A stretch of DNA of 64,000 nt from Lingula anatina. Lineage: Eukaryota > Animalia > Brachiopoda. Below the pieces are notes generated by a model. That model did not search any database. It was not told the origin of the DNA and saw only the letters and a program-made list of their open reading frames with translations. The stretch covers positions 3,038,001-3,102,000 of the forward strand of contig JBPQGU010000016.1 in the NCBI GenBank assembly GCA_051362555.1, in the 5' to 3' direction. Numbering within the stretch: the stretch's first letter is position 1; each line of letters starts with the position of its first letter. A program made the position numbers and the translations under genes. Below, one piece after another: positions 1 to 41,270 of this stretch.

Positions 1-778
1 AATTTGCATTTTTTAAATCATCTTTTATTTGTTTTATACTTCTAGAAAGTGATTTTGCTAATTCTTTGATATCTTTATTTTTGTTTTTTTGTTTTCATTT
101 ATATAAATAAAAAAAATATCTACCTCTAGGTCATGGTTTCTTTCCAACATTTTCACCATATGAATGTTTTTTATAAATTGCTCTTTTTAATTCAATTGGA
201 TCATTAACAATTGTTATGTCAATTTTTTTTGGTAATTTTGTTTTACAACCTTCTTTTTTATTTTTTAAATGTTTTATTTTTTCTGTTATTTTTTCAAAAT
301 TTGATTTAATATCTTGTTTATTAAAATTATCATTTTTTTCATAACTTTCTTCACCTTTAGGTTCAATTATTTGTTTTCAACATTTTAAAAATGTTACTTT
401 ATTATTTTTTTGACAAATTTTTAATATTGCAACCCTTCTATTACCTTCTGCTACAATATATTTTGATTCTTTAGTTATTGGGTTTATTTTTTCAACAACC
501 AAAATATTATCATTTATTGAGGGTAATCAACCATCTTCATCAAAACTTGTTAATAGATCTAATAAATCATTTAATTTTCTTTCATGTATAAAAAGTTCAT
601 TTATGATATCTTGTTCTTTTTGCAAATTATAATTTTTATTTTTTTCAATTATATGATCAATAAATCTTTTTGTATCAAATTCAATATCATATGAAAACCT
701 TAAATTAGCTTCAGATAATTCTAATTTGTCTAAATCAATATCTTTTTCATTTATAAAAGTTTTTTTATTATTGTTCAT
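1..778 (-). CDS. ParB/Srx-like N-terminal domain protein, runs off the window start
   Basis: ORF 527..778 reads through TGA(Trp) into LPSINDNILVVEK...YIVAEGNRRVAILK, a ParB-like EGNRR motif. N-terminus has LELSEANLRF. Confidence 0.6.
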
Positions 779-996
779 AATAATAGCTTAATTTATTTTT
801 TTAAAAAATAAAAGCTATTTTTTTAAAAAATAAAAAAATTAAAAATAATTTTTAAAATTATTTATATTATTATGTAAATAAAAATTATTCTATTTATTAA
901 TTATTTTTAAAAAAATAAAATTAAATGATTTTAATTCTTAAAAAAAACAATAAAATATCTTTATATACTAATTTTTAAAGAGGAGTGAGTAAAAAA

Positions 997-1308
997 ATGT
1001 CATTATTAAATATTAATAAAACTTTAAGTGAAGTAGACAAAGTAGATTTAAATAATTTAGATAGTAAGGTAACAAATACAATTATTATTGTTTTAGTTGT
1101 TGTTGTTATTTTGTGGATTATATCTTTGAAACTTTCATGAGATGGAGGTAGAGATTTTTATAAAAATGGTTCAGTTTGAAAAATTATACTTGGATTTTTC
1201 TTATCTGGTGGATTATTTGGATTACTTTTGGCTTTTTTATCTTACAAAAAAGCAGAAAGAAAAGCAAGAATTAAAAAAGAAAAAGAATTAGAAGAAAAAA
1301 TTAAATAA
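997..1308 (+). CDS. small membrane protein (103 aa), paralog of 10091..10402
   Basis: AGGAG RBS and ATG at 997. Hydrophobic segments and motif WIISLKLSWDGGRDFYKNGSVWKI. TAA at 1306-1308. Confidence 0.8.
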
Positions 1309-1346
1309 AAAAGAAAAAAAATTAAATTGAAGAGAATAAAAATTAT

Positions 1347-1865
1347 TTAATTCAAATTTATTTTACTTAGTTGTTCTTTTAAGGTTTTTATTTGTTCTTC
1401 TTTATTTTGAATTCATTTATAATTTCTGGAAATAAAGTCTTTTAATTTTATTTCTTTTATATTTTGTATTTGATTAATTATATTTTTGATATTAAATTTT
1501 TGTATTACATTTGTAATTGCTTTTAAATTTTGAATTTTTATATTTTTAATTTTAAAAATATTTTTAAAATCTATTCTTGTTTTTGTATGTGGAAATTTTT
1601 CAAAATGTGTAATACTTGGATCAATTAAAATAGTTTGTTTTTCTTTACATAGAGAAATGTTTGTTGTTAAATATGTTGGTTTATTAATTAATTTTTCTTT
1701 TTTTTCATTGAAATGATTACAAAAACCAATATAAAAATAATTTTTATCTTTATGTAATACACAACAATAATGTAATGTATGATCTTTTTTAGTTTTTGGA
1801 TCAATGACATAAAAAGAAAATAGTCCAATAAAACTTCCAATTTTTATTTTTTTATTTATTCTCAT
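1347..1865 (-). CDS. putative toxin, weakly PemK/MazF-like, of a Panacea TA pair
   Basis: Reads through TGA at 1413 to TAA at 1347. Start overlaps the end of the antitoxin frame. N-terminus KIGSFIGLFSFY...HYCCVL..FYIG parallels the toxin at 19307. Confidence 0.5.
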
Positions 1866-2389
1866 CAAATATTTGAATAAATTTCATCATATTCATTAAT
1901 GAATTTTTCTAAATTCATTTTGTTGTCTGTTTTTAATGTTTTTATTTTTGAATATGCTTTAATTCATGCAGGATCAGAATGCGATATTTCAATTAATCTA
2001 TATGGTTAAACATCTTTAAAAATTTTTACAAATTTTTTTATAATTTTAGTTTGATCTTTATATTTTTTTTCAATTTCTTTTTTTAATTTTGATTCATTAT
2101 TTTCATTTATTTTATTGAATCAATTTGAACAATTTTTTCATGCTTTAACAACAACACCACCATTTAAAAAACAAATAATATCTTCTGAAAATATTTTTTT
2201 ACCTGTTTCTATAAGATGAAATATTTGTAATAAATGTAAGTATTTATTTAAAATAATATTTCTTACAGTAGGACTATAACGTGTATTATTTTTGCAATTT
2301 GTATTTATATTTGCTTCAAATAAATTTTCATCTTGAAGTCTTTTTTTGTCTAATAAATAAAGATATTGACAAATTTTCTTTAATTCCAT
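1856..2389 (-). pseudogene. Panacea/DUF4065 (SocA-like) antitoxin with an in-frame TAA at 2006-2008
   Basis: ILNKYLHLLQ...GKKIFSEDIICFLNGGVV..W and, after the stop in the same frame, LIEISHSDPAW match the DUF4065 motifs (LQKLLY...LF.e.i.AW..GPV; L...tH...pW). Confidence 0.7.
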
Positions 2390-2416
2390 AATATGTTAAC
2401 TCTTTTCTTTTTTATA

Positions 2417-4339
2417 CTATTTATTTTTTAAAAATTCTAATAATTTTATTTTTAATTCATTTTTTGTTTCATTAGATTTATTTTGTTCATATGAAACCTC
2501 AATGTTTTCTTCAAAAGCATAATAAGAACAATTATTTTTATTTATAAAATTTAAAATCTTTTTATTTTCTTTTTCATGATCTATATTTAATGAACAACGT
2601 AAACTTTCGCATTTTTTATTTTTATTTTTTTTATTAGTTTTAGTATCTTTATCAAATAAAACAAAAATATTTTTTGATTTTGTTTTTAATATTTTTAAAG
2701 CTTTTATTATATTAGTTTTACAAAATGTTGGTAAAATCATATAACTTGTTGATATATTCTTTTCATCTTTTAATATTTCATCAGTAATTTCTTCAAGACA
2801 TTTAATATCTTTTTCTCCTTCACAAATAATAATTTTTTCATAAAAAAAAGATCTTATAATTTGTTGTTTTGTTGTTCAATTACTACTATTTATTTTATTA
2901 ATGTTTTCATTTTTAAAATAACCCATACCTTCTTTTTCATTTGGTATTTTAAAGTCTATATTTTTAAAATTTAACATATCATTTGTTAGATTGGTTGAAT
3001 GTGTTGCTAAAAATATTCTTAAATAAGAAATTTTTAATAATTTATTTAATTCTATTGATAATCTTTTTAATAAAACATTATCTAAACTTGTTTCTGGTTC
3101 ATCAATTATTAAAACAATTTTTTTATCTATTTTTTCATAAATTTCTTTAATAATATTTATTAATAAAATTATTATAAAAAGTCATGCTTTACCAGTTCCA
3201 AAAAAATTAATTTTTTTAATATTTTTAAAATTTATTTTAAATATATTTTTAAACTCATTTTTTTCTTTTGCAAGTTTTTTAATTTTTGCTTCTTTTTTAT
3301 TTTTTTTGTTTATTAATTTGTTTTTTTCTTTTTTATTAATTTTTTCTTCTTTTTGTTTTTTTAATTCTAGTAACCTTTCATTATCTTTATATGAAAAAAC
3401 ATTTTGAGAACAAGAGTAATTGTAATATTTTTTTTCTTTTTTTATTCATATATTTATACTTTTTTTAAAATCAATTTTTTCTTTGTATTTAAATTTATTT
3501 CAATTAAATGAAAATGGATTTGCAATACTTTTATTTTTTTTAATATTAAAACAATCTTTAATTTCTGGTACATTTATTGTATTTTGTCAAATTTTTTCAA
3601 AATTCATTTCTTGACTTATTTCATATTTTTTTCTTCAATTTAAAATTATTTTTTGTTTAATTTCTTTTTCTTTTTCTTTATTTATATTTTTATTTGAAAA
3701 ATTATTTATTTTATAATATGGATTTTCTAACATAAAAAAATATTGAATTTTATTAACTAGAAATGTTCAAAAATAATTTTTTTGTTTTTTAAATTCTTTT
3801 TCAAAATTTTTAAATTTTGTTATTTTTAAAAAAATTGCATCATTAAAAAATTGATAAATACTACTATAATTTTCTTCTGTATATTCTTTTATTCTTTCTA
3901 ATTCTTTACTTTTTCCTCAACCGTTTGGACCAATATATATTGATGATTTTTTAATTAAATTCATTTCACTTTCATAAAAGTAATTAGAATCTTTTAATAA
4001 TTTTCTATTTATTATATTTTTGTTTTTATAATATTCATAAAATTTTCTAATAATTACAGAAATTAATATGTCTGATTGTCCAAAATCATAAATTACAAAA
4101 TTTATTTTTTCATTTCCAATTTTAATAATTTCAAGAAATTTATTTTTTCCAAATGTTTTTACTAGATATTCAATACCTTCGCCTAATTTAAATCCTTTGT
4201 GTAAATGATTTATGTTGTATTTATGTTTGTTATTTATTTTTTTAGATTCATTATTAATATAATTGAAAATAATACATACTTCATCTCTTGAAATTATTTT
4301 TAAGATAATTGATATACATTTTTTGATAATAGAATTCAT
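2417..4339 (-). CDS. OLD-family-like ATP-dependent nuclease (ABC ATPase + TOPRIM), 640 aa
   Basis: One continuous frame with TGA=Trp. Walker A GPNGWGKS, GTG signature, Walker B LIIDEPE, H-loop ATHS, TOPRIM FFYEKIIICEGEKD and LFDKD. Confidence 0.85.
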
Positions 4340-4393: not shown

Positions 4394-5242
4394 ATGAGTG
4401 ATTTAATTTTAGGAAGTCAAACAAGTTTAAAGAAACCTAAATATTTAGAAGGTGTTATTGAACAAGTAAAAGAATTTGGTGGTAATGCAATGATGTTTTT
4501 TATTGGTACACCTCAAACATTTAAACAACAACCAAAAGAAAATTTAGATAAAAAATTATTTCATAAATTATTAAAAGAAAATAATTTTGATATTAATAAT
4601 GTTTATATACATGCATCATATTTAGTTAATTTTGGTAATACAAATAATAAAAATGTTTTTTCAACATCAATTGAAATTTTAGATGCTATTTGTAGTAATG
4701 CAAATTATATTAAAGTAAAAAATATAATACTTCATCCTGGTTCAGCAGTTAGTGCAACAAAAAATGAATCATTAAAATCATTAATTAAAGGAATAGATCA
4801 TATACTTAATATTTATAAAGATATAAAAATTCATTTAGAAACTATGTCAGGAAAAGGTAGTGAAATTGGTTCTACTTTTGAAGAATTAAAATATGTTATT
4901 GATAATTCTAAATTTTCAGATCGAATTTTTGTATGTTTTGATATATGTCATCTTTTTGCATCTGGCTATGATGTTAAAAATAATTTTGATGATGTATTAA
5001 ATCAATTTGATCAAATAATAGGATTAGATAAATTAAAAGTTTTACATTTAAATGATAGTTTAAAACCATTTAATAGTAAAAGAGATAGACATGCAAATAT
5101 TGGAAAAGGTTTAATTGGTTTAAAAGCATTAAAAAATATAGTACATCATCCTAAATTAAAAAATGTAGTCAAATTATTAGAAACCCCATATATAAATGGT
5201 AAACCACCATATAAAGAAGAAATTAGAATGTTAAATAAATAA
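4394..5242 (+). CDS. nfo: endonuclease IV (AP endonuclease)
   Basis: HASYLVN, HPG, LETMSGKGSEIG, CFDICH, HLNDS, DRHANIG and LETP motifs. Confidence 0.97.
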   Translation: MSDLILGSQTSLKKPKYLEGVIEQVKEFGGNAMMFFIGTPQTFKQQPKENLDKKLFHKLLKENNFDINNVYIHASYLVNFGNTNNKNVFSTSIEILDAICSNANYIKVKNIILHPGSAVSATKNESLKSLIKGIDHILNIYKDIKIHLETMSGKGSEIGSTFEELKYVIDNSKFSDRIFVCFDICHLFASGYDVKNNFDDVLNQFDQIIGLDKLKVLHLNDSLKPFNSKRDRHANIGKGLIGLKALKNIVHHPKLKNVVKLLETPYINGKPPYKEEIRMLNK

Positions 5243-5303
5243 TATTAATAAATTAAATTTTATATTTTTTGTTTAAAAATATAAAATAAAATAAATAAAT
5301 TAT

Positions 5304-6662
5304 ATGAAAAATAAAACAAATATTAAGAAAAATGGTGAAATTTTTACACCAAAATATATAGTAAAAGAAATATTAGAAATGTCATCTTATAATTCTTTTG
5401 AAAGAGTTTTGAAAAAACATGTTATTGATAATAGTGCTGGTGAAGGGTCATTTATAATTGAAATAATAGATTTGTATTGTACTTTGTTTTTAAAACAAAA
5501 TAATGATTTAACATTATTAAAAAAACATTTGGAAACATATATACATGCAATAGAATTAAAAAAAAATAATTTTAATTTATTGATTAAAAATGCTAATTTA
5601 GTTGTTGAAAAATATAATTTATCAAATATTAATTGAGATTTTGTAAATGGGAATGCCTTATATATTAAAAGTTTTAATAAAAAAATGGATTATGTTTTTG
5701 GTAATCCACCATATGTTAGAATTCATAATTTGAATAAAAAAGATCTAAAAACATTAAAAAAAATGTCTTTTTTTAATGGAGGAATGATTGATTTATATAT
5801 TGGATTTTTTGAAATTGGAATAAATATGCTTAATGATAATGGAATATTAGGTTATATTACTCCAAGTAGTTTTTTTTTTAGTAAATCAGGTAGTGGATTG
5901 AGGGATTTTTTTATGAATACTAAAAAATTAAAAATAATAAAAGATTATGCTCATTCAAAAATATTCAAAAATATTTCTACTTATAATGCAATTACAATTT
6001 TTGATAAAAAATATACAAAAAAATATTTTATTTTAAAAGAATTTGATAATAAAGAAAAAAAAATTATATTTAATAAAAATTTTATTTATAATTTTTATTT
6101 TAATTTACAAAATAAAAATTATAATTTCAAAAATAAAAAAATCATAGCAAAAAATGGGGTCGCTACATTAAATGATAAAATTTTTGTTTCTAATTCATCA
6201 TGTTTTTTAGAAAAATATAATAAATTAAAAATTTATAAAGCTTCTTCAAATGAAATGAAAGAAATTATTTTTCCTTACCATAATGCAAAAGTGATAAATT
6301 TTAAAGATTTAAATGAAGTAACAAAAAAATACCTTTTAAAGCATAAATCTAAACTTCAAAAAAAAGAAAAAAAGAACTGATATGAATTTGGAAGGACACA
6401 ATCACTTAAAGATGTTAAATATAAAAAATATGGAATTTCTACATTAATTTCTGAAAATAAACAAATTAATATTAAATTATTAAATAAAAATACATGTATT
6501 TTAAGTGGATTTTATTTATTAAATGCTACTTATAAAGATATAATTAAATTAAGAACAAAAAAATTTTTCAATTATGTTAAATCATTAAGAAAATATAAAA
6601 ATGGAAAATATTACACTTTTAATACAAGTGATTTGGAGTTTTTTTTAAATAAAAAATGATAA
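5304..6662 (+). CDS. N6-adenine DNA methyltransferase (gamma class, TaqI/Eco57I-like)
   Basis: GEIFTP, DNSAGEGSF, GNPPY, DLYIGF and WYEFGRTQ in one frame through TGA codons. TAA at 6660-6662. Confidence 0.9.
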
Positions 6663-7375
6663 ATACAAATGATATTTTTTTAAAACAATTATCAAGATCT
6701 TTTTATGAATATTTGGTATCTGGTTCACGTTCAAATAAAAAATTAAAAATTTTACATGGTTTTATAAGAGAGAAAATTCAAGAAAAATTAGGTAATGAAT
6801 ATAAAGTATTTTCTTTGAACGAATCTTCTAATGATTTAAAAGAAAAAATAATAAATGGTAGATATTATGACAAAAAAGTAGATATATGTATTGAAAAAAA
6901 TGAAAAAATTTTATGTTGTATTTCAGTTAAATTTGTTATGCAAAATTATTTACAAAATTCAAATAATTATTTTGAAAATTTATTAGGTGAAGTTGCAAAT
7001 TTAAGAAGTAATCAAATTTCATATTTTCATATTTTTATAATATTTGATAATTTACCATATTTTAAAAAAACAAATGGTGATGAGATTAAAAAATTTGAAA
7101 AAATAGAATTGAAAAATTTAAAAAAATATATTAAATTATCACAAGATGATCCTAAAATTTTTTATCATACACCTGAAAAAATTTTATTTGTTTTATTAGA
7201 AAAAACAAAAAACAAAAATATAAAAAACAAAAAAGATTATATTGATTTTTATAAAAAAAATAAAAATCTTAAATATTCTAAAAAAATTAATATTAAATTA
7301 AATTCTTCATTATTGATATTCAATGATTTAAATCTTTTTTTAAAAAAACTTTATCATTTTATAAATTTTAAATAA
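6656..7375 (+). CDS. putative type II restriction endonuclease
   Basis: Overlaps the MTase end. PD-(D/E)XK-like KVDI...ISVKF followed by QNSNNYFENLLGE. Confidence 0.75.
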   Translation: MINTNDIFLKQLSRSFYEYLVSGSRSNKKLKILHGFIREKIQEKLGNEYKVFSLNESSNDLKEKIINGRYYDKKVDICIEKNEKILCCISVKFVMQNYLQNSNNYFENLLGEVANLRSNQISYFHIFIIFDNLPYFKKTNGDEIKKFEKIELKNLKKYIKLSQDDPKIFYHTPEKILFVLLEKTKNKNIKNKKDYIDFYKKNKNLKYSKKINIKLNSSLLIFNDLNLFLKKLYHFINFK

Positions 7376-7399
7376 TTTTTTTAGTTTTTTAAAAAATAT

Positions 7400-7682
7400 A
7401 AATTATATTAAAAATAATTTTAATAATTTATTAAATTAATTTGATCAAATCATATGATTAGATAAATTAAAAGTTTTACATTTAAATGATAGTTTAAAAC
7501 CATTTAATAGTAAAAGAGATAGACATGCAAATATTGGAAAAGACTTAATAATTGGTTTAAAAGCATTAAAAAATATAGTACATCATCCTAAATTAAAAAG
7601 TGTAGTCAAATTATTAGAAACCCCATATATAAATGGTAAACCACCATATAAAGAAGAAATTAGAATGTTAATTAAGTAATAT
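7400..7682 (+). pseudogene. nfo: duplicated 3' end of nfo (copy 2)
   Basis: 7456-7542 is identical to 5022-5108, and the rest is near-identical to the nfo end. The 5' part (7400-7455) is eroded. Confidence 0.93.
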
Positions 7683-9254
7683 TTATTTTTTATTTTTTAA
7701 TAAAGTGGAAATTGTTATTATATTTATTTCAGATGTTTTTAAATCTGTAAATTTATTATTTTTTAATAAAACAACTCTACTACAAATTTTTTGTAAAACA
7801 TATATATCATGTGTTATTAGTATGCAAGCTTTGTTTTTGTTTTTAAAATATTCTTTTAAAAAATTTAAAATATTAAATTTAAATTTAATATCCAAATTAT
7901 TTGTAAATTCATCTAAAAATAAAATATTTGGTTTTTTCATTATAGAAATAAAAAATGAAAATCTTTGTTTTTCACCACCAGACATTTTAGATATTTTTTT
8001 ATTAAATATTGTTTCAATTTCTAATATATTTTTTAATTTATTTATAAAATTTTTATCACTATTTTTATCTATTAATGAATTTAATACATCTTTTACTTTT
8101 AATTCTTTTAAATAATCAATTTCTTGTAATAAAAAATCTATATTTTCAAATTGATTTTTTTTATATTTAAAATTGTAATTTATTATTCCATCATCTGCAT
8201 TTCCTAAACCTATAATTGATTTAAAAAATGTTGTTTTTCCAACACCATTTTTTCCAAGAATTCCAATAATTTCACTTTTATTTATTGAAAATGAAAGATC
8301 TTTAAATATTATTTGTTTTTTAAATGTTTTAGATAAATTTTTAATTTCTATTAAACTGTTTGAATTTGTATTTAAAATGTTTGTTCTTTTAAAATTGTTT
8401 TTAAATATATTTTTTGAATCAAAATCTAATTCTATTTTTTTAAGTATTGTAAATGGTAATGTTAATAAAATAAATAGAATAGGTATTATAATATTTAACA
8501 TTTTTATTTCTTTTTTAAATAAAATTTCAAATTTTTTTGTATTTAAATTAAAAAAAACAGAATCTTTTGTAAAATCAAAAATACCACCACCATTAATATT
8601 AATTATTTTTGAACCATTTGCATTTAATGAATTTAAAAATAAATTACCTACATATTTTAATGGATGTATGTAACTTATTTCATTTATAAATTTTATTTTA
8701 GTGCTTGGTAAAAAACTTAATGTAACAACTCCTAATGAAATTCCAAATATTATTGTTGATAATAATGAAAATATATTAATATTTTTCATATATAAATATA
8801 ATAATTGTCCAATTAATAAACAAATTATATTAAAAATTATTAATGAATATAAAAATTCAAATATATTAATTTTTTTAAAAAATATATTTATTTGTTCTAT
8901 ATTTTTTAAATAAATTAATAAAGAAATACCAAATAAAATGAAAAAAAATACTAAATTAAAAATAAAAAAATAAATAATTGGTAAAAAATTTTTAATTCTT
9001 GTTTTTTTAATTAAAAAAAATTTTTTAATAAATGATGATTTTTTTATTAAAAAAATAAAACCTGGCATTGTTCCTATAGAAGAATTAATTATAAAATAAT
9101 AAATTAAAGATTGAATAACAATATCAATAGGTAAATTAATAATTGGAAATACAATTATTAAAATTGATGGCAAAATAATTCAAAACAATAAACTAAATCA
9201 TCCAGATCAAGTTTTAAAAATATAATTTTTTAATATTTTTAATAGTAAATTCAT
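7683..9254 (-). CDS. fused ABC-2-type permease + ATP-binding protein (exporter)
   Basis: N-terminal transmembrane segments, then GKNGVGKT, MSGGEKQR, LFLDE and ITHD. Start extended to ATG at 9254 through TGA codons. Confidence 0.88.
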
Positions 9255-9439
9255 ATTTATTTTTTGTTATTTCATAATTATTTTATAATTTATGATATAA
9301 ATATTTTTATTTTTTAAATTTAAAAAATAAATTTGTATTTTTAAAATTAATTGAAGTTTTAATTTAAATTTTTAAAAATTTAAATTATATTTCAATAAAT
9401 CATATTATTATTTATATAGATTCTTTACTTATTATTAAA

Positions 9440-9910
9440 TAAAAAAAACTAATTATTAAATTTATTAATTGATTGAATATATAAAATATTTTAATTATAT
9501 AAAAATATAAATTATTAATTTAGTAACTAGGTATTGAAATATATTCTAATTAAAAAAATATTATTTATAATTTTAAATTTAAAAATAGAATTTTTGTTTG
9601 TTTTTATATATTTAAATTTTTTTAAATTTGGTTATGATATTAAACATAATTTAAATTATTTTTAAAATTAATTTGATCCAATAATAATATTATATAAATG
9701 AAAAATTTTAAATTTAAATGATATTTTAAAAGAGCTAGAAAATAAAAGATATAGACATGCAAATATCAAAAAAGACTTAATTGGTTAAAAAAATTAAAGA
9801 ATATATTAAACATTTTAAATTAAAAAATTTATTTAAATTATTAGAAAAAAAATATATAAATAGTAAATTACAATATAAAAAAAATTAAATTATTAAAAAA
9901 AATAAATATC
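9440..9910 (+). pseudogene. nfo: heavily decayed nfo fragment (copy 3)
   Basis: Collinear with nfo ~4760-5245: gaatttttgtttgtttt, ggttatgatattaaa, aatttgatc, atagacatgcaaatat, aaattattagaaa. Most G/C have become A/T. Confidence 0.8.
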
Positions 9911-10090: not shown

Positions 10091-10402
10091 ATGTTTTTAA
10101 ATATTAGTGATACAATTGACATTGAAAAATTATTTGGATTATCTGATTATAATACTTCAATAGCAATTTTAATTTCTATTGTTGTATTATTGTTTATTTT
10201 ATGAATAATATCTTTAAAACTTTCATGAGATGGAGGTAGAGATTTTTATAAAAAAGGTTCAGTTTGAAAGATTATAGTTGGATTTATATTTGGAGGACAA
10301 TTATTAGGTTTATTTTTAGCTTATTTATCATATAAAAAAACTAAAAGAAAAGATGAATTAAAAAAAGAAAATAAACGTAATAAAAATAAAATTATTTCAT
10401 AA
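10091..10402 (+). CDS. small membrane protein (103 aa), paralog of 997..1308
   Basis: AAGGA RBS. Motif WIISLKLSWDGGRDFYKKGSVWKI. Confidence 0.8.
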
Positions 10403-10506: not shown

Positions 10507-10899
10507 ATGATTTCAAGATACAATCAAAGATTTTCAATTATTAATTTTTTTTATCATCATTTTGTAATGGATTATAAAATTTTAGATACAAAACAATTTT
10601 GATTGAGAAAAAAGAATTTTGATCAATGACAAATACAAATTTTTAAATTTATATTTAATAATTATGATGATTTAATTCAAAGAGTTAAAGATAATTTAGA
10701 TGAAAAATGAAAATTTGAAGAAATTTCAAATTTTGAAAAAAGTATTTTATTAGTTGCTTCAGCAGAATATTTTTCAAAAATAACTCCAATTGAAGTTGTT
10801 ATTAGTGAAGCAGTTAAAATGACCAAAAAATATTCAGGTATTAAAAATTATAAATATATAAATAATGTTTTAGATAATATGTTTAAAAAAGAATTATAA
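10507..10899 (+). CDS. nusB: transcription antitermination factor NusB
   Basis: SRYNQR, WKFEEISNFEKSILLVASAE, PIEVVISEAVKMTKKYS and YKYINNVLD. Confidence 0.88.
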
Positions 10900-12045: not shown

Positions 12046-12714
12046 ATGAAAAATAAAAAATATTTTCAAAAAATTTATAAAAAAAAGTTAAAAGAAAATT
12101 ATTTAAATAATTACAAAAAGTTACAAATTAAAATAAAAGAAAATGATTTTGAAACAATAGAAAAAATAAAAAAACATATCAATAAATTTGATTTTAATTT
12201 TTTTGATTTTATTGATAAATTAAAAAAATATCCAGTTTTTTCTTCTTTTTTTATAAAAGATCCTAAAAAACAAAATATTTATGAAAATATTTGTTATGAT
12301 TTGATTTTAAATAATAAAAGTGAATTTTTAAATTTTAAAAAATTACCAGCAAGTGGTAAGAACAGTATTTCTTTAAATGATGGAAAAATAGAAATAGGAT
12401 TATCTTCTAGAGAAAGAAAAACTAAAACAATTGATTTTTTTTGAAAAATTAAAGACAATAAAAATCAAATTATAAATTGTTATGCCTATCATAAATATAT
12501 TTTAGAAAATGGCGGTGCACAAGATAATCAATATAAAGATATTAAAAATTCTATAGAAAATGCACTAAATAATAAAAGATTAGATAATAATTATTTTTTC
12601 TTTATATGTGATGGCGATTTTTTTACATATAAAAAAATTAAAGAATTAAAAAGTTTAATTAATAAAAAAAATAAAAACATTTTCATATTATCAATTGATG
12701 AATTAATTAATTGA

Positions 12715-12774
<60 letters not shown>
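12046..12774 (+). CDS. putative type II restriction endonuclease with poly-Asn tail
   Basis: Directly follows the MTase. KTIDFFW...HKY..NGGAQDNQ..D...ICDG. Ends in N18-K-stop. Confidence 0.7.
12715..12768 (+). repeat. (AAT)18 microsatellite
   Basis: Perfect trinucleotide run, in frame as Asn codons. Confidence 0.95.
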
Positions 12775-23836: not shown

Positions 23837-24901
23837 ATGAATAATTATTTTAAAGAATTAAAAGATGAAATTAAAACAGCTTCTTTATTACAAAAAGGAT
23901 TATTAGTTTTAGGTGTTGTAGCTATTGGTACAACAACTGCTATGATTGGTGTTGTAACAGTAAATAATTCTGAAAAATCAAAAACAGAAAAAGAAGATTC
24001 AATATCATCTTTAGAAGAATCAAAAACTTCAAAAAAAGAAACAGCAAAAAATATAGAAGAAGCTGCTTCTAAAGTTGGACCAGCAGGACCAAGAGGTGAA
24101 ACTGGACCACAAGGACCACAAGGTGAACCAGGACCGCAAGGACCTAAAGGTGACACAGGTGATAGAGGACCAGTAGGACCAAGAGGGTTAACAGGACTAG
24201 CAGGTGCTCCAGGTGCTAAAGGTGACACAGGTGAAAGAGGACCACAAGGTGAACCAGGACCAAGAGGTGAAAGAGGTGAACCAGGACAAAGAGGAGAAAG
24301 AGGTTTACCAGGACCACAAGGACCAGCAGGACAAAATGGTGCTCCAGGTGCTAAAGGTGACACAGGTGATAGAGGACCAGTAGGACCACAAGGACCAGCA
24401 GGACAAAATGGTGCTCCAGGTGCTAAAGGTGACACAGGTGATAGAGGACCAGTAGGACCACAAGGACCAGCAGGACCAGCTCCAACTGCACAACAAATAG
24501 GAGCGGCAGTTCAAACATACTTTACAAATAATCCAGTAAATGATGGTGCAAATGCTACACCTGAACAAATAGCAGCAGCAGTTCAAGCATACTTTACAGC
24601 TAATCCATTAACAAGAGGACCAGCAGGTGAAAAAGGTGAAAAAGGTGATCCAGGTGAACAAGGACCACCAGGTGCTGATGCAACTTTAACAACTGAACAA
24701 ATAGAAGGATTAAATAATATTCAAACATTAATAGCAGATATTAATCAAGTAAGAGGATTTTCAAATGTCAATCAAGTAGAAATTGGTCGATTAAGAGATG
24801 ATCTAAATGTTGTTACACAAAATCTTCGTACATTAACAACAAATGTTGATCAAATAAGACAATCTTTGGCTCAAATAATAGCTTCTTTACCTTCTTCTTA
24901 G
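23837..24901 (+). CDS. collagen-like surface protein 1 (~45 Gly-X-Y triplets, coiled-coil head)
   Basis: N-terminal TM anchor, Gly-X-Y tract and C-terminal heptad-like segment. AGGGG RBS. Confidence 0.93.
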   Translation: MNNYFKELKDEIKTASLLQKGLLVLGVVAIGTTTAMIGVVTVNNSEKSKTEKEDSISSLEESKTSKKETAKNIEEAASKVGPAGPRGETGPQGPQGEPGPQGPKGDTGDRGPVGPRGLTGLAGAPGAKGDTGERGPQGEPGPRGERGEPGQRGERGLPGPQGPAGQNGAPGAKGDTGDRGPVGPQGPAGQNGAPGAKGDTGDRGPVGPQGPAGPAPTAQQIGAAVQTYFTNNPVNDGANATPEQIAAAVQAYFTANPLTRGPAGEKGEKGDPGEQGPPGADATLTTEQIEGLNNIQTLIADINQVRGFSNVNQVEIGRLRDDLNVVTQNLRTLTTNVDQIRQSLAQIIASLPSS

Positions 24902-24944
24902 AATTGGTATTTAATTTTTTTAATTAATGATTGATTATAAAAAA

Positions 24945-24977
24945 AACAAACCTAAGTAATTTTTACTTAGGTTTGTT
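24945..24977 (+). terminator. intrinsic terminator-like hairpin
   Basis: aacaaacctaagtaa/ttacttaggtttgtt perfect stem after collagen gene 1. Confidence 0.75.
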
Positions 24978-25413
24978 ATTTAAAAATATTAACGTTATAT
25001 TTAAAAATAATATTGTTTTTTTATATATTTAAAGTATATTTAATTATTTAATTTATAAGTTTATTTATATATAATAGAATAAATTAATAAGATATTTTTA
25101 TTATTTTTATGTTTAATAAATAGAAATTTTTTATTTATTTTAATATATTTTAAGAATTTAATTAAAATATTTGTTAGAATAAATAATTTAATTTTAGTTG
25201 TTTTTTATAATTTAAATAAAGATAAATTTAAAAAATTTATTAAATATTTAAAAAAGTATAATTTATAAATTTAATGTTTGTTCATATATAATTTTTTTAA
25301 AAAAATATATGTAGAAAATATAATTAATAAAGTTAAAAAATATTTATTAAGATATATTGTTATATATAAATAAGATTATTTAAAAAAATATAAAAGAAAA
25401 AAATCTATTTATA

Positions 25414-25455
<42 letters not shown>
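25414..25455 (+). repeat. (AAT)14 microsatellite
   Basis: Perfect run, lying in a segment absent from copy B. Confidence 0.9.
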
Positions 25456-25460
<5 letters not shown>

Positions 25461-26542
25461 TTTAAAATTATTACTATTTAATTAAAAAATATTAAAAAAT
25501 TAAAATTTAGAAATAATAAATTATAGCAAATATAATATTATTTATTTTATATATTGAATATATATACATTTTATTATTCATTTTATAAAAAAATCTATAA
25601 AATGAAAAAAATATAAAAATGTAATTTAAAAATAATTTTTTATTATAATTACAATTTCAATGATTTTATATTTATCATTATTAATTAATAATTATAAAAA
25701 ATCAGAAAAATTAGAAAAAATTTCTAAAATTTATAATTTTAAAACTAAACATAAAATAAAAAATAAACAAAAATTTAAAAAAGCATTAGATTAAAAACAA
25801 ACTATAATAATAAAACCAGATATGTCAAGTTTAACAACAAAAATTCCAAACCAGTTTTAGATATTTCACAAAAAATAAAAGAATAAGAATAAAAAAAGAT
25901 AATTTGATATTTTATTTAAATCATATGGATAATAAAAAAAAGATCTATAAAATTCAAAACAAGTATAAATTGATAATTTAATTTTAAAAACCAAAAGATC
26001 AATACCTAATTTTGATAGTTTAAGTCAAACAAAAGAACAAAATCCATCAAAAAGAAAATAAAAATCATAACAAAAAACCAGAACAGAAAAAAACAGGACA
26101 AGTTCTAATATAATAGAAAATTAAAAAAAAAAAAAAAAAGAACAAGAATTATTATTAATTATTGAAACAATTTCATTAATATATTCATTTGATGTATATT
26201 TACTATCTGTTTTAAAAAATAAATATTTAACAGAAGAATTTATAGAGTAATTTCAAAATAATGTAAATATTGAATTATTTTTTAGATTAGCAATAATTAT
26301 AAGAAATGATGAAGACTATAAATTATATTAATATAAAAAGTTAAGATTAATAAAAGTTAAAAATTTATATGTTTGAGAATTTATAATGTCAGTTATTAAT
26401 TTTGATAATGATTAATAATTTTAAAATTTAAAAAATTAGATTTTTTTATTTTTTGATATTTTAATTATAAATAAATGAATAAAAAATAAAAAAAAATGAA
26501 TAATAAAAAAATAAATATAAAATTATAAAAAAGGGGAATGAA

Positions 26543-27784
26543 ATGAATAATTATTTTAAAGAATTAAAAGATGAAATTAAAACAGCATCTTTATTACAAA
26601 AAGGATTATTAGTTTTAGGTGTTGTAGCTATTGGTACAACAACTGCTATGATTGGTGTTGTATCAGAAAATAGTTCTGAAAAATCAAAAACAGAAAAAGA
26701 AGAATCAATATCATCTTTAGAAGAATCAAAAACTTCAACAAAACAAACAGTAAAAAATATAGAAGAAGCTGCTTCTAAAGTTGGACCACAAGGACCTAAA
26801 GGTGAAAAAGGTGAAAAAGGTGATACTGGAGATACTGGACCAGAAGGACCACCTGGACCACCTGGACCAAGAGGTGCAACAGGACCTAAAGGTGACACAG
26901 GTGAAAGAGGACCACAAGGTGAACCAGGACCAAGAGGACCTAAAGGTGAAGATGGTACACCAGGTACACCAGGTACACAAGGAGAAAGAGGTGCAACAGG
27001 ACCAGCAGGACCAACAGGTGCTCCAGGTGCTAAAGGTGACACAGGTGAAAGAGGACCACAAGGTGAACCAGGACCAAGAGGTGAAAGAGGTGAACCAGGA
27101 CAAAGAGGTGAAAGAGGTGAACCAGGACAAAGAGGAGAAAGAGGTTTACCAGGACCACAAGGACCAGCAGGACAAAATGGTGCTCCAGGTGCTAAAGGTG
27201 ACACAGGTGATAGAGGACCAGTAGGACCACAAGGACCTAAAGGTGAAACAGGTGAAAGAGGACAACAAGGACCAAGAGGGTTAACAGGAATAGCAGGTGC
27301 TCCAGGTGCTAAAGGTGACACAGGTGAAAGAGGACCAGCTGGACCATCTCCAACTGCTGAACAAATAGCATCAGCAGTTCAAGCATACTTTATACAACAC
27401 CCAATAACTAATGGTGCTAATGTTACACCTGAACAAATAGCAGCAGCAGTTCAAGCATACTTTACAGCTAATCCATTAACAAGAGGACCAGCAGGTGAAA
27501 AAGGTGAAAAAGGTGATCCAGGTGAACAAGGACCACAAGGTGAAAGAGGACCAGCAGGACCAGCCGGAACATTAACAGCTGCACAAACAACAGCTTTAGA
27601 TGATACTGTTCCAAGATTATGAACAGGTTTTACTCAAGTAAGAACAACATTAAATGGACATCAATCAGAAATTGTCGGATTAACATCTCGACTAGAAGCT
27701 GCTAGAACAGAAATTACTGCATTAAGACAAGCTTATACTCAATTAAGAACAATTGTGGAAGACATAAAAGCTGGACTTATTTAA
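26543..27784 (+). CDS. collagen-like surface protein 2 (~63 triplets, different coiled-coil head)
   Basis: Same N-terminus as gene 1. Reads through TGA at 27620 to TAA at 27782-27784. Confidence 0.93.
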
Positions 27785-29170
27785 TTAATGATTGATTATA
27801 AAAATAATAAAGTAAAATTTAAAAATAATATTGTTTTTTTATATATTTAAAGTATATTTAATTATTTAATTTATAATTTAAAAAAGTTTATTTATATATA
27901 ATAGGATAAATTAATAAGATATTTTTTTATTTATTTTAAGATATTTTAAGAATTTAATTAAAATATTTTTTACAATAAATAATTTATTTTTAGGTATTTT
28001 TTATCATTTAAATAAATATAAATTTAAAAAATTTATTAAATATTTAAAAAAGTATAATTTATAAATTTAATTTTTTTTTAGATATAAGTGTTTTACAAAA
28101 ATATATGTAGAAAATATAATTAATAAAGTTAAAAAATATTTATTAGATATATTGGTATATATAAATAAGATTATTTTTATTTTATTATTCATTTTATAAA
28201 ACAATCTATAAAATGAAAAAAATATAAAAATGTAATTTAAAAATAATTTTTTATAAAAATATTAAAAAAGTACTTGAAAAAAAGTTTTTTATTATAATTA
28301 TAATTTTAATAATTGTATATTTATAATTATTATTTAATAATGATAAAAAAAATCAAACAATCAAAATAAATTAAAAAAATTTTATAAATGTATAATTTAC
28401 AAACTAAAAATAAAATAAAAAATAAATAAAAATTTAAAAAAGAATTAGATTAAAAACAAAATATAATAATAAAACCAGATATTTCAATTTTAAAAATTAC
28501 AAATACAAAACCAGTTTTAGATAGTTTGCAAAAAATAGAAGAATAAGAATACAAATAAGGATAATCTGATATTTTATTTAAACCATATAGATAATAACAA
28601 TAAGATCAAAAAAATTTAAAAAAAGGATAAATTGATATTTTAATTTCAAAAGCCAAAAATTCAATATCTAATTTAGATAGTTCAATCCAAAAAAAATAAC
28701 AAGATCCAATTACAAAGATAATAAAAATCAGAATAAACACCAGGAATAGAAAAAAGGATAAGTTCCAATATAATTGATAATTACAAAAAAAAAAAAAAAA
28801 AAGATCAAAAATTAGTATTAATTATTGAAAAAATTTATTACTATATTTATGTGATTTACATGTAATATCTGGTGTAAAAACTAAATATTTAAAATAAGAA
28901 GTTATAGAATAATTTCAAAATAATGTAAATATTTAATTATTTTTTAGATTAACAATAATTATAAGAAATGATGAAGATTATAATTATATTAATATAAAAA
29001 GTTAAGATTAATAAAAGTTAAAAATTTATATGTTGGAGAATTTATAATGTCAGGTATTAATTTTGATATTATGATTAATAATTTTAAAATTTAAAAAATT
29101 ACATTTTTTTATTTTTTGATATTTTAATTATAAATAAATGAATAAAAAATAAAAAAAAATTAATAATAAA
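27782..29170 (+). repeat. duplicated intergenic unit, copy B
   Basis: Collinear with 24921-26542. Confidence 0.9.
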
Positions 29171-29223
29171 AAAATAAAATAAAAATAGTTTATTTTATTG
29201 AAAAAAAGAAAGGAAAAAGAGAA

Positions 29224-32200
29224 ATGAATAATTATTTTAAAGAATTAAAAGATGAAATTAAAACAGCTTCTTTACTACAAAAAGGATTGTTAGTTTTAGG
29301 TGTTGTTGCTATTGGTACAACAGCTGCTATGATTGGTGTTGTATCAGTAAATAATTCTGAAAAATCAAAAACAGAAAAAGAAGAATCAATATCATCTTTA
29401 GAAGAGTCAAAAACTTCAACAAAAGAAACAGTAAAAAATATAGAAGAAGCTGCTTTTAAAGTTGGACCACAAGGACCACAAGGACCAAGAGGACCACAAG
29501 GACCAAGAGGAGAACAAGGACCAAGAGGACCACAAGGACCAGCAGGACAAAATGGTGCTCCAGGTACTAAAGGTGACACAGGTGATAGAGGACCACAAGG
29601 TGAACCAGGACCAACAGGACCTAAAGGTGATACAGGTGCAAGAGGACCAGCAGGGGTTCCAGGACCTAAAGGTGAACAAGGACAACAAGGTGAAAGAGGA
29701 CTGCAAGGTGAACAAGGCACCCAAGGTTTAAGAGGTGAACAAGGACAACAAGGTGAAAGAGGTGAACAAGGACCTGTAGGACCACAAGGTGCACAAGGAC
29801 AAAGAGGAGAACAAGGACCAGCAGGTGTTCCAGGACCTAAAGGTGACACAGGTGCACAAGGACAAAGAGGAGAACAAGGTTTAAGAGGACCAGCAGGTGT
29901 TCCAGGTTCTAAAGGTGACACAGGTGCAAGAGGACCACAAGGTGAACCAGGACCGCAAGGCGAACAAGGACAACAAGGTGAAAGAGGTGAACAAGGACCA
30001 GCAGGTGTTCCAGGACCTAAAGGTGACACAGGTGCACAAGGACAAAGAGGAGAACAAGGTTTAAGAGGACCAGCAGGTGTTCCAGGTTCTAAAGGTGACA
30101 CAGGTGCAAGAGGACCACAAGGTGAAAGAGGTGAACAAGGACCAGCAGGACAACAAGGTGAACAAGGACAACAAGGTGAAAGAGGAGAACAAGGACCAGT
30201 AGGACCACAAGGACCAAGAGGTGAAACTGGACCACAAGGAACACAAGGTGAACAAGGACAACAAGGTGAAAGAGGAGAACAAGGACCAGCAGGTGTTCCA
30301 GGACCTAAAGGTGACACAGGTGCACAAGGACAAAGAGGAGAACAAGGTTTAAGAGGACCAGCAGGTGTTCCAGGTTCTAAAGGTGACACAGGTGCAAGAG
30401 GACCACAAGGTGAACCAGGACCGCAAGGCGAACAAGGACAACAAGGTGAAAGAGGACAACAAGGTGAAAGAGGACAACAAGGTGAAAGAGGACAACAAGG
30501 TGAAAGAGGACAACAAGGTGAACAAGGACAACAAGGTGAAAGAGGAGAACAAGGACCAGCAGGTGTTCCAGGACCTAAAGGTGACACAGGTGAACAAGGA
30601 CAAAGAGGAGAAAGAGGTTTAAGAGGAGAACAAGGACCAGCAGGACAACAAGGTGAAAGAGGTGAACAAGGACCAACAGGACCACAAGGTGAACCAGGAC
30701 CAAGAGGAGAAAGAGGTGAACCAGGACAAAGAGGAGAAAGAGGTGAACCAGGACAAAGAGGAGAAAGAGGTTTACCAGGACCACAAGGTATACAAGGTAT
30801 TCAAGGTTTAAGAGGCGAACAAGGTATTCAAGGTTTAAGAGGTGTACAAGGAGAAAGAGGTGAACCAGGACCAGCAGGACCAGCAGGACCAGCAGGACAA
30901 AATGCATCATTAGAACAAATAAAAGAAGCTATTAAAGAAATAGCAAGTATTAGAACATTTGTAAATACAATTGATACTATTCAAACTATTACAATTAATG
31001 ATACAAATAAAGAAGATTATAAAAAACTTGCTGAATTTGCAAAAGAATTATCAATATATACTAATGCAAATGAAAATGATCCTGTAAAAATTCTTATTAA
31101 TAAATTAATTGAACAAACAACTGGTGTTTTAAATGATGATGAAAAAATAAATCTTAAAAATATACTTAATGTAATTAAAACAGAAATTAATGAAATATTA
31201 CCACAAGGTCAAAAAGGAAATCCTGGTTTAGATGGTAGAAATCCAACAAATGAAGAAATACGATCACAAGTTCAATCTTTTATTGAAGATATATCAAACA
31301 TTAGAGTGTTATTATTTGTTATAAATGATGCATTAGCTGCTAATAGAGAAATTACTATTAATGATTCAAATAAGAACAGATATATACAATTAGCTGAATT
31401 TGTAAAAACACAAACAATATATAATGCTGATAATGCTGATCAAGAATTAAAAACTATAATTGATAATCTTGCTCTTGGTAATGATATTGACTTTCTTTCT
31501 AATAAACAAATTATTCAAACTTTAATTAATTATTTATATAGAAACTTTAATGACATTTTAATTCAAGGTCCAAAAGGAAATCCTGGTTTAGATGGTAGAA
31601 ATCCAACTTCAAGTGAAATACAAGAACAAGTTAAATCTTATATTAATAATATAGTTTCAATAAGAACATTAATTAATAATATTAAATCTAAATTAGATTC
31701 TAATGAAGATATTAATATTGATGATTCAAATAAAAATGAATATATAAGTCTTGCTATATTTGCAAAAGAATTAGAAATATATACTGCATCAGATGCTGAT
31801 GAAAATATAAAAACAATAATTGATACTTTTTTTAGAGGTGAAGATATTGACTTTGTTAATAATAAAGAAGATGTTTTAAAAATCATTGAAGCAGTTGACA
31901 TTAAAATCAATAAAATATTACCAAAAACTAAACCTAAAATATCATATAAAAAATTATTATTTGCATTAATGAAAGGTGGTGATATTTTACCAACAGATGA
32001 TAATGATATAAAAATTAATAAAATGCAACAAAAAATTTCTGCAATTTTTGAATTAATAAAAGACACTTCAAATACAGAAACATACACTACAAATGATGGA
32101 ACAATTATAATAATACCTAGTTGATTTAGTGATGATACTTTTAAAAATAAAACTCGAGCATCAATTCAATCTAAAGTAACAGAATGATTATATAATTCTG

Positions 32201-32433
32201 AAAATAAATATAAAAATCAAGAATTTTTTATAAATGATAAAAAATTATATTCATCATTTACATATTTACAAGGATTATGAGAAAAAAATTATATTTATAA
32301 AAAAATATGATTAAGAGTAAGAAGATTATTAAATGGTACTTTATCAGCTAGTGTTTGGTATGGTGATTATACTTCATATATAAATAGTAGACCAGAAAAT
32401 GAAAGAGCAAACTTTGGTTATCCATTAGAATAA
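29224..32433 (+). CDS. collagen-like surface protein 3 (1069 aa, ~160 triplets, three helical repeats, Trp-rich tip module)
   Basis: Shared N-terminus. Gly-X-Y from 29464 to ~30900. Reads through TGA at 32122 to TAA at 32431-32433. Confidence 0.93.
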
Positions 32434-32746
32434 TAAAAATATAATTTTTAAAAAATAAAAATTATAATTATTTATTTTATAAATTAAAGTATTATATTTT
32501 ATAACAAAATATTATTATTTTTATGTATTTTTAAAATTGGTAAAAGATTTTAAATTATTTTTTGTAAAATTAAAATTTGTTTTATTTTAATCTAATCAAA
32601 CATTTAAAAAAGTAAATTTATTTAAATAAAAACAATTAAATATTTATATATTTTTAATTTAAAAATACTTAAAAAAATAACTATATAAAAAAAAATAAAA
32701 AAAAAATAAAAAAAAATAAAAAAATAAATATAAAATAATAAATGTA

Positions 32747-33937
32747 ATGAATAAATATTTTAAAAAATTAAAATATTATTTTATAAAAGCTTCATTTTTA
32801 AAAAAGATATTATTATTTTTTTGTTTTTTAATAATAATAGGTTTGATATGTACAATTTCTATTGTTTTGTCATTAAATGATTCAGAAAAAGTAAAGAATG
32901 AAATATCTTCACAAAAAGGAAAAATAAAAAATAGAATAATTCAAAATAAAGATCAAGGTTCTAGTGAAAATTCAAAAAGTTTAGATGAAAAAAAAGAAGT
33001 TTCTTTAATTAAAAAAACATTAAGTGCAAGTGAAATAAAAGATAAATTAGGATTACCAAGTTGATATGGAACTCCAAATATAGAATTAAATGAATTGCAA
33101 ACTTGATTAAGTAGTGATAAAAAGAACTTTGATTATGTTGTAAATTCTAGAAATTTGTATAGTTTAACTGATACATGGATTACTTATTTTGATGATGTTG
33201 GTTTAAGAATTAAAAAATCTGGTGAAAATGCTGGTAAATATCAATATGCTAATTATAATTTGTCTGAACAATGAGAATGAAAAGATACTTTTTTTGAATT
33301 ACCATTCTTACCTCAATTTGATGAAATACCTAGTTGATTTTATGGAGGAGAACAATTAACATCTAAAAATGCTTTTGATTGAATTAGTGAAAGTCTTGAT
33401 AATTTTAAATTATTTATTGAAAAAGCAATACAAAAAACAAAGTTAAATAATCATGTAATAGATTATGAAAATGGTAAAGTTATTGTTAGAAAATTCAATT
33501 TTGGTCCTAGAAAAGGTATTTTTGTAGTTGGTTTAAAAACATTAGAAAATGGAATAATTGGATTTGATGAATATACTGAACAAACATTAAGTAGTTTTAT
33601 GTTTGAAAAAATGAAACAAGAATTATTTAATTCATTTGAAAGTCAAAGACAAAACAATATGTTAAGAGGACCAACAGAAGTTTTGTTTGCTCAAATTATT
33701 AAAAAATATAAAGATTTTATATTCGGAATAGAACCTAGAATAGAAAATAAAAAACTTTTTTGACTTGATAATAGAGAATATGAAGTACAAATCTATGAAA
33801 TAAAAATTTCTATTAATAGTCTTGAAAAAATATTAGTAAAAGTTGAAATTGAAAAAACAAGTGGTAAAGCATATATTGTAAGTGATATTTATGTTGGTAT
33901 ATATGAACCAGTATTAATTAGTTTAATTGGTTTATAA
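32747..33937 (+). CDS. membrane-anchored surface protein of the same family, without collagen stalk (396 aa)
   Basis: N-terminus MNKYFKKLK..IKASFLKK.LL is homologous to the collagen leaders. Contains two PSW(Y/F)...W modules. Confidence 0.8.
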
Positions 33938-34639
33938 TAAATTATTTTTTATATTTAAGAAATCAATAGATATTTTTGTAAAAAAATAATATTAAAAAAA
34001 ATACAATGTTAAAAATTAAAAATGAAATGAATAATTATTTTAAATAATTACAAGAGATGACATAAAAATAATTTAATATCTTTTGCTGATTTTGTTTCTT
34101 TTGGTTCTTTGTCTAAGTTTTTAAAATATTTTTTTTATTAAAATTAGTAAATAATATTTTTAAATTTAATAATTAATTTTTAGATAAATTATTATTCATA
34201 ATTCAAATAAAAAAATTAATAAATTTAAAAAAGTTAATAATAAATAAAATTTTAAATAAAAATTGATATTTAAAAACTATAATTGATAAATTTGATAATA
34301 TTAAATATATAGTTTTTTAAAAAAAATAAATATATTTAAATTATAGTTAATAAAGTTAAATAAGAAATTAATAAATTTTTAATATAAAGTAAAACATTTT
34401 AAATATTAAAAAATATAATTATTTATGATTTATTAAAAATATTTAAAATATTTTATTATGATAATTTTTAAAATTTAATTAGATCATATATAAATAGAAA
34501 AACACATTTATTTTATAAAAATAATACAAATAAAAAATAATAGAATTTATTTGTAATAGAAAATATTAAAAAGTACTTTTTAAAAAATTAATATATTTAT
34601 AAAAAAATAAATATAGGTTTTAATTTTAAAAAAAGGTTT

Positions 34640-36016: not shown

Positions 36017-38459
<2,443 letters not shown>

Positions 38460-41225: not shown

Positions 41226-41270
<45 letters not shown>

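What the first reader, a model, noticed from the sequence alone, without database searches (positions are those of the whole stretch)
4394..9910. nfo 3' end acts as a cassette-accretion site: cargo genes separated by age-graded nfo copies
Seen: intact nfo, then an R-M pair, then nfo 3' copy 2 (87 nt identical, rest near-identical, 5' edge eroded), then an ABC exporter, then nfo copy 3 (~470 nt, heavily AT-decayed). Copies 2 and 3 share AAAAGACTTAA where intact nfo has AAAAGGTTTAA. No integrase or transposase is visible. Inference: cassettes carrying an nfo tail are added serially by recombination at the gene end, restoring nfo and pushing older cargo downstream. This would be an integron-like but recombinase-free stack, and the R-M pair could excise as a circle between nfo and copy 2.
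Basis: partly seen in the sequence, partly recalled or inferred. Interest (0 to 1): 0.85.

Follow-up and report, generated by a model that had tools for sequence, protein, structure and literature searches.

The report
Two inserts stacked behind duplicated nfo
In an unnamed mycoplasma-like bacterium, a restriction-enzyme gene pair and a transporter gene lie behind the DNA-repair gene nfo, each followed by a dead copy of nfo's end; these copies are likely scars of two successive insertions of a known, still unexplained type ('insertion with long target duplication'), and the nearer scar has likely been partly rewritten since by recombination with nfo.

Summary
The repeats are real. Copy 2 matches nfo at 277 of 298 columns; copy 3 is about 600 nt (not 470), 72% identical, far above AT-matched controls. 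A second sample shows the repeat at double depth, so misassembly is unlikely. All 5 family-level relatives have nfo directly next to nusB, so the 5.3 kb was gained. The same R-M family is bracketed by duplicated gene ends in 3 of 25 other mollicute loci, one with an empty site in close relatives. This is the known 'insertion with long target duplication'; this scan noted that class before on other DNA. The shared GAC would replace an invariant glycine, so it is a pseudogene change passed between copies. nfo is no general hotspot (tail copies in 2 of 392 genomes, both explained otherwise). No cargo turnover or circle was seen; neither could be tested properly. That the ABC gene came by the same route is inferred only.

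The parts
4394..5242 (+). nfo, endonuclease IV, intact, 282 aa
   Evidence: PF01261 E 8e-47; TIGR00587 262 bits, cut-off 130; PDB 3aal E 1e-75
5304..6662 (+). Type II amino-methyltransferase (NPPY motif), 452 aa in code 4
   Evidence: PF07669 E 4e-25; PADLOC MTase_II E 3e-85; best homologues 40-45% identical
6656..7375 (+). Predicted restriction endonuclease, PD-(D/E)xK fold, 239 aa
   Evidence: No Pfam, PADLOC or NCBIfam hit. Model pLDDT 92; best folds NucC Z 10.8 (rmsd 3.5, 165 aligned), Kpn2I Z 9.7, PspGI, AgeI, NgoMIV Z 9.2; next to the MTase homologue in 25 of 29 fetched loci
7402..7455 (+). Copy 2, decayed head (nfo 4968-5021)
   Evidence: 46 of 54 identical, 2 of 9 G/C kept
7456..7671 (+). 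Copy 2, fresh body (nfo 5022-5234): 3 substitutions and one 3-nt insertion
   Evidence: 45 of 46 G/C kept; collapsed contig with these exact ends at depth 13.3 vs 5.5-7.8 in run X2
7543..7551 (+). Copy-3-like patch in copy 2 (ACTTAA in place of GTT)
   Evidence: also in the X2 contig; chance of parallel change about 0.008
7683..9254 (-). Fused ABC-2-type membrane domain + ATPase, 523 aa, motifs intact; likely exporter
   Evidence: PF00005 E 6e-23; membrane part has 2 remote relatives at 28-30%, one matching ABC2_membrane; membrane part not found in 5 family genomes
9309..9905 (+). Copy 3, decayed copy of the last ~600 nt of nfo
   Evidence: 72% identity, 32 of 116 G/C kept; colinear diagonals 4680-4665
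10091..10402 (+). Small membrane-protein gene, also gained in this interval, with no nfo copy after it; paralogue at 997-1308
   Evidence: family homologues lie elsewhere in 3 of 5 genomes
10507..10899 (+). nusB, ancestral downstream neighbour of nfo
   Evidence: PF01029 E 1e-13; adjacent to nfo in 5 of 5 family genomes

Best explanation
The two dead nfo tails are likely scars of two successive recombinase-free insertions at the end of nfo, likely first the ABC gene (about 600 nt duplicated) and then the R-M pair (about 300 nt duplicated), each of which left nfo whole. Shown: the layout, the empty ancestral state, the mosaic structure of copy 2, and the same behaviour of this R-M family at secA, map and a surface-protein gene in other mollicutes. 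Inferred mechanism: incoming DNA that carried an nfo tail joined the chromosome by one homology-directed crossover (or break repair), so the tail ended up on both sides of the cargo. Both copies then decayed towards A/T. Copy 2 kept exchanging sequence with nfo (gene conversion, or amplification and collapse of the 2.4-kb unit), which renewed 213 nt and left the head old; copy 3 fell below the level needed for recombination (longest exact match 16 nt) and froze. A short template switch from copy 3 likely wrote the GAC patch and the 3-nt insertion into copy 2 in one step. Loss of the R-M unit is likely disfavoured by post-segregational killing, and a crossover left of the patch would likely damage nfo.
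For: Empty state in 5 of 5 family genomes. R-M family present at other sites in 2 of 5 family genomes and in 29 of 398 order genomes. Bracketing repeats at G345 (285 nt, 99.6%), G636 (42 nt, 100%) and G162 (secA 3' end); the G162 site is empty, with one copy of about 130 nt, in G347 and shows the empty junction in 6 of 15 relatives. Published repeats of this class span about 25-423 nt and often cover a start or stop codon (PMC2853133 Table 3 and section 15). Mosaic: Fisher p 1.4e-6. recA in 5 of 5 family genomes. Of 47 window genes tested against 22 spacers, nfo is the only single-copy gene with decayed copies.
Against: No close relative shows an intermediate state (nfo-ABC-copy 3 without R-M); nearest genome has 51% nfo identity. 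Copy 3 is longer than any repeat in the published table and its cargo is not R-M. Flanking repeats were not enriched in my crude test: 3 of 25 R-M loci vs 4 of 55 control intervals. A third gained gene (10091-10402) has no nfo copy, and about 31 kb more accessory DNA lies behind nusB with no nusB copies, so this region gains genes in other ways too. X2 contig depths (MTase 5.5, nfo 5.6-7.8) show no amplification. recA of this organism itself was not seen.
Confidence: 0.55

Rival explanations
1. Only the R-M pair came by insertion with long target duplication. Copy 3 is the remnant of an ordinary old tandem duplication of nfo (whole or partial), and the ABC gene landed in or beside the dead copy independently.
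For: Copy 3 covers about 73% of nfo and stops about 55 nt from the ABC start codon, as if overwritten. G344 shows a plain tandem duplication with an nfo end as its border (837 nt, 97%; cargo paralogues 79%). The window holds other tandem paralogues (transporters 45088-49962, collagen-like genes).
Against: No trace of the first ~235 nt of nfo near copy 3. No duplicated cargo. The idea of a repeated [nfo + small gene] unit failed: spacer homology between the small-gene paralogues reaches only about 100 nt.
Confidence: 0.27
2. One reading: an active accretion site where circles carrying cargo plus an nfo tail come and go between strains by RecA, forming an ordered, variable stack.
For: 213-nt, 98% repeat is long enough for RecA; old head plus fresh body is what repeated excision and re-entry would leave; G162 shows eroded inner arms as well.
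Against: Same nfo-MTase junction in samples of 2015 and 2025 (X3: 784 nt, 0 differences). No other genome with an R-M or a stack at nfo among 392 searched. The shared GAC is not a working allele.
Confidence: 0.1
3. A long-duplication transposase (IS1634/IS1549 type) acting from elsewhere in the genome made one or both insertions, or an IS later decayed away.
For: G524 has an IS1634-family transposase (NF033559, 337 bits) behind nfo between 318-nt identical repeats. Such elements give 8-514 bp repeats (PMC2266710).
Against: No transposase remnant in the interval; no terminal inverted repeats above chance (p 0.53 and 0.34); the R-M family has bracketing repeats without IS elsewhere.
Confidence: 0.06
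4. Copy 2 is an assembly artefact.
For: No raw or long reads were available; the copy 2 - ABC junction itself was not covered by the reads laid.
Against: In independent sample X2 a 216-nt contig spans exactly 5022-5234 at about twice the flanking depth and carries copy 2's GAC and 3-nt insertion; copy 2 has its own decayed head.
Confidence: 0.02

Closest known systems
R-M insertion with long target duplication (Furuta, Abe, Kobayashi 2010, PMC2853133; first described by Nobusato et al. 2000, seen only as a citation)
   Same: R and M genes only, insert under 20 kb, direct repeat over 30 bp that covers a stop codon and leaves the gene intact, no mobility gene.
   Different: Two duplications of one gene end in series; the outer one is about 600 nt and encloses a non-R-M gene; the inner one is a mosaic of old and renewed sequence; host is a mollicute (none in the paper's Tables 2 and 3); empty site seen only at family level.
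E. coli e14 at icd with displaced icdC tail (PMC13626634)
   Same: Intact gene, cargo, then a pseudogene copy of the gene's 3' end; excision would give a chimeric gene.
   Different: e14 is a prophage excised by site-specific recombination after SOS induction; here no recombinase and no phage genes.
IS1634/IS1549 long variable target duplications (PMC2266710)
   Same: Repeats of hundreds of bases in mollicutes; one such event hit nfo in G524.
   Different: No transposase or terminal inverted repeats in this interval.
Integron cassette arrays (recalled, not from a call)
   Same: Ordered stack of cargo with the likely newest next to a fixed site.
   Different: No IntI, no attC hairpins sought or seen, separators are gene-tail copies of 300-600 nt, no evidence of cassette exchange.

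Membership tests
R-M insertion with long target duplication | Insert holds both R and M homologues | tested here: met
   MTase by profile; R by predicted fold and linkage; activity not tested
R-M insertion with long target duplication | Insert shorter than 20 kb | tested here: met
   repeat-to-repeat distance 2434-2437 nt
R-M insertion with long target duplication | Direct repeat longer than 30 bp | tested here: met
   298 columns, 93%
R-M insertion with long target duplication | No integrase or transposase in or beside the insert | tested here: met
   Pfam scan of all ORFs from 2 to 23 kb found none; rest of the genome not held
R-M insertion with long target duplication | Empty site with one copy of the repeat in a related genome | tested here: inconclusive
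   nfo-nusB adjacent in 5 of 5 family genomes, but these are 42-51% identical in nfo; no conspecific empty site. Met for the same R-M family at secA, G162 vs G347
R-M insertion with long target duplication (applied to the ABC unit) | Insert holds R and M genes | tested here: not met
   7683-9254 is one ABC gene; it can work like this class but is not a member as defined
Integron | Tyrosine recombinase IntI next to the array | tested here: not met
   none among 24 ORFs scanned around the site
Integron | attC hairpin sites after each cassette | not tested
   separators are nfo-derived direct repeats; no attC model was run
Integron | Cassette content varies between strains | tested here: inconclusive
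   2 of 4 runs laid cover the site and show the same junction; X4 and X5 cover neither nfo nor the MTase
IS1634-type insertion | DDE transposase between the repeats | tested here: not met
   present in G524 for contrast
IS1634-type insertion | Terminal inverted repeats | tested here: not met
   best inverted matches at chance level, p 0.53 and 0.34

The most novel reading that the evidence does not exclude
The nfo end is a self-renewing, recombinase-free loading dock: cargo of any kind that carries an nfo tail enters by RecA, pushes older cargo down a stack, and the resident restriction enzyme keeps the nearest tail fresh by driving amplification, excision and re-entry of its own 2.4-kb unit, which would be the missing natural evidence for the proposed release-and-reinfection cycle of R-M genes.
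Probability: 0.12. Interest if true: 0.72.

Novelty: new variant of a known kind. Interest (0 to 1): 0.4.

Why it matters
How R-M genes insert with long duplications is unexplained, and release after amplification lacked evidence when PMC2853133 was written (discussion passage). This locus adds three usable things: the class in Mollicutes, with a filled/empty pair (G162 vs G347); a possible second round at one gene end with non-R-M cargo; and a repeat whose old head and renewed body record continued recombination. Strong AT drift acts as a clock that makes old and new sequence easy to tell apart.

Tried and rejected
Own-genome search: none held. GTDB and metagenome pattern scans gave only 36-45% nfo relatives; nearest proteins 65% and 51%, the 65% one without reachable DNA. 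Order search around G001 hit the wrong order. Reads were laid only on 4394-5990, so the copy 2 - ABC and copy 3 junctions, ABC presence in other samples and any skip joint remain untested; X4 and X5 cover neither nfo nor the MTase, which shows nothing. Contigs cannot show a circle because the repeat is longer than the assembly word. Enrichment of flanking repeats at R-M loci: not shown (3 of 25 vs 4 of 55; 2 of the 31 places were not fetched and 4 of 29 lacked an M gene or flanks). nfo as hotspot: 7 of 392 genomes have more than one match; 5 are full paralogues, split genes or a distant pseudogene, 2 have a downstream tail; control metK 3 of 384 with two matches, all full-length, 0 tails; the difference is too small to use. 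Shared decay of copy 2's head and copy 3: 9 of 13 doubly changed sites agree, p 0.13, not significant. Repeated [nfo + small gene] unit: rejected. Terminal inverted repeats: chance level. Promoter scan: 95 sites vs 90 expected. The rough probability printed was badly posed and was replaced. Foldseek gave no match at E <= 0.001 for the nuclease and a profile search of solved structures none. Literature searches that found no report of nfo as an insertion site or of this class in Mollicutes: (listings only). PMC2952849 passages added nothing.
Full report
Setting. The window is 19% G+C and reads in genetic code 4. EF-G is 83% identical to one unnamed protein, 66-69% to nine more and 63% to Spiroplasma and Mesoplasma, so the host is a deep, unnamed mollicute. 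Its genome is not held. The five genomes in the family of the nearest hit (G317, G332, G339, G325, G345) have nfo at 42-51% identity.

Observation. Copy 2 aligns to nfo 4968-5262 at 277 of 298 columns. Copy 3 scores 407 against a maximum of 80 in 800 shuffles and 39-74 for ten real spacers. It spans about 9309-9905, the last ~600 nt of nfo. It kept 435 of 478 A/T but only 32 of 116 G/C: neutral decay under AT drift. Among 47 genes tested against 22 spacers, nfo is the only single-copy gene with such ghosts.

Not an artefact. Six public runs hold part of the stretch. In X2, another sample of the study that may be the source, contigs break at 5022 and 5234, the exact limits of the near-identical tract; that contig has depth 13.3 against 5.5-7.8 beside it and carries copy 2's GAC and 3-nt insertion. 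X3, from another study in 2015, has the nfo end joined to the MTase over 784 nt without a difference. X4 and X5 do not cover nfo or the MTase, so they say nothing. Only 4394-5990 was laid.

Ancestral state. In 5 of 5 family genomes nusB starts within 14 nt of the nfo stop; here the gap is 5264 nt. None has a second nfo match. The interval gained four genes: MTase, nuclease, ABC and a small membrane gene.

The cargo. The MTase is Type II. Its partner has no profile hit, but its model (pLDDT 92, 20-sequence alignment) matches restriction-nuclease folds: all top ten rows are restriction enzymes, NucC or Cdn1, Z 8.3-10.8. Homologues occur in 29 of 398 genomes of the order, two of them family members at other sites. 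The ABC gene has a membrane part with only two remote relatives that was not found in the five family genomes; G317 has a fused ABC at 25% identity elsewhere, too distant to call an orthologue.

The R-M family duplicates gene ends elsewhere. Of 25 usable loci, 3 have a bracketing direct repeat of at least 40 nt at 90%. G345: M, R and a PD-Lambda-5-like gene between 285-nt copies of a surface-gene start. G636: M and R between perfect 42-nt copies of the map start; adk and map lie close together in 6 of 15 relatives. G162: secA, M, R, then a copy of the secA end; G347 (95-96% identical) has the empty site with a single copy of about 130 nt, and 6 of 15 relatives show the empty junction. Against this, 4 of 55 control intervals also had such repeats, mostly paralogue arrays, so enrichment is not shown.

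Known class. PMC2853133 (abstract, passages, sections 13 and 15; supplements not read, Figure S7 may hold stacked cases) defines insertion with long target duplication: R and M, under 20 kb, repeat over 30 bp, no other mobile element. Its Table 3 lists repeats of about 25-423 nt, often over a start or stop codon, and no mollicute. It reports amplification between such repeats as shown and release as unshown. PMC3031569 (passages) repeats the amplification point. PMC4760077 (first third) reports R-M-linked rearrangements without transposons in an endosymbiont. Nobusato 2000 and Sadykov 2003 were seen only as citations. The R-M unit meets four of five criteria; the empty site is met only at family level.

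Copy 2 is a mosaic. Its head (nfo 4968-5021) kept 2 of 9 G/C, like copy 3 (3 of 9); its body (5022-5234) kept 45 of 46 (Fisher p 1.4e-6). So 93% identity dates the last exchange with nfo, not the insertion. Gene conversion, amplification and collapse, or entry of a circle from a donor that had long carried the unit would all leave this pattern; the sequence cannot tell them apart. recA is present in 5 of 5 relatives.

The shared GAC. It turns Gly239 into Asp; 120 of 120 homologues have Gly and none has an insertion there. It is therefore unlikely to come from a working allele. Parallel change has a chance of about 0.008. Replacing GTT by ACTTAA from copy 3 yields both substitutions and the 3-nt insertion at once, which suggests one short template switch (inference); survival of an old shared island between two renewed tracts is the alternative. 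Either way, sequence passed between the copies.

Is nfo special? Tail copies occur in 2 of 392 genomes: G524, an IS1634-family insertion with a 318-nt perfect repeat (such elements give 8-514 bp, PMC2266710 passages), and G344, a tandem duplication of surface genes. metK shows 0 of 384. No hotspot can be claimed. Protein searches would miss tails as decayed as copy 3.

Verdict. The R-M unit is very likely (about 0.8) an insertion with long target duplication. That the ABC unit came the same way earlier is the simplest reading but rests on layout alone; overall 0.55. The closest gene-plus-tail precedent with a recombinase is e14/icdC (PMC13626634 passages). The integron comparison is recalled knowledge and fails on the recombinase. 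Earlier scan notes list the same class in other genomes; I reached it before reading them and did not check them.

Noticed in passing
L159:4480-6900 (G162) and L176 (G347): Same R-M family inserted at the secA 3' end with about 130 nt duplicated; clean empty site in a 95-96% identical relative.
   Followed up: yes
L149:4418-9415 (G345): R-M pair plus a PD-Lambda-5_A-like gene between 285-nt near-identical copies of a surface-protein gene start; the second copy runs into a stop after about 130 codons.
   Followed up: partly
L143:4165-6834 (G636): R-M pair inside the secY-adk-map operon between perfect 42-nt repeats of the map start.
   Followed up: partly
L138:9921-12410 (G524): IS1634-family element behind nfo with a 318-nt perfect target duplication.
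   Followed up: yes
L137:4178-13835 (G344): Tandem duplication of two surface genes; the nfo-end border is 97% identical while the cargo copies are 79%, another case of a repeat fresher than its cargo.
   Followed up: partly
window 997-1308 and 10091-10402: Paralogous small membrane genes on both sides of the nfo block; 36 of 45 core residues identical, about 100 nt of upstream homology.
   Followed up: partly
window 2-4339: Defence-like block upstream of nfo: PD-Lambda-5_A-like ORF, a Panacea antitoxin with an unknown partner, and an OLD/GajA-like ATPase-TOPRIM gene.
   Followed up: no
window 11023-41401: About 31 kb of accessory DNA between nusB and the metK block, which directly follows nusB in 3 of 5 relatives: a further predicted R-M pair, a GmrSD fragment, a second Panacea pair, an EcoRI-like R-M pair.
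   Followed up: no
window 23837-38459: Array of collagen-like proteins with a shared N-terminus and G+C up to 42% in a 19% genome, with a decayed family copy near 34640-34910.
   Followed up: no
window 45088-50003: Three tandem transporter paralogues at 76-79% DNA identity where relatives have one.
   Followed up: no
window 12046-12774 and 39737-41401: Two ORFs carry long poly-Asn (AAT) runs, possible slippage or phase-variation tracts.
   Followed up: no
window 4808-4874: Run X2 has a low-depth record that goes back from 4874 to 4808 with 4 letters between; probably a library artefact.
   Followed up: no
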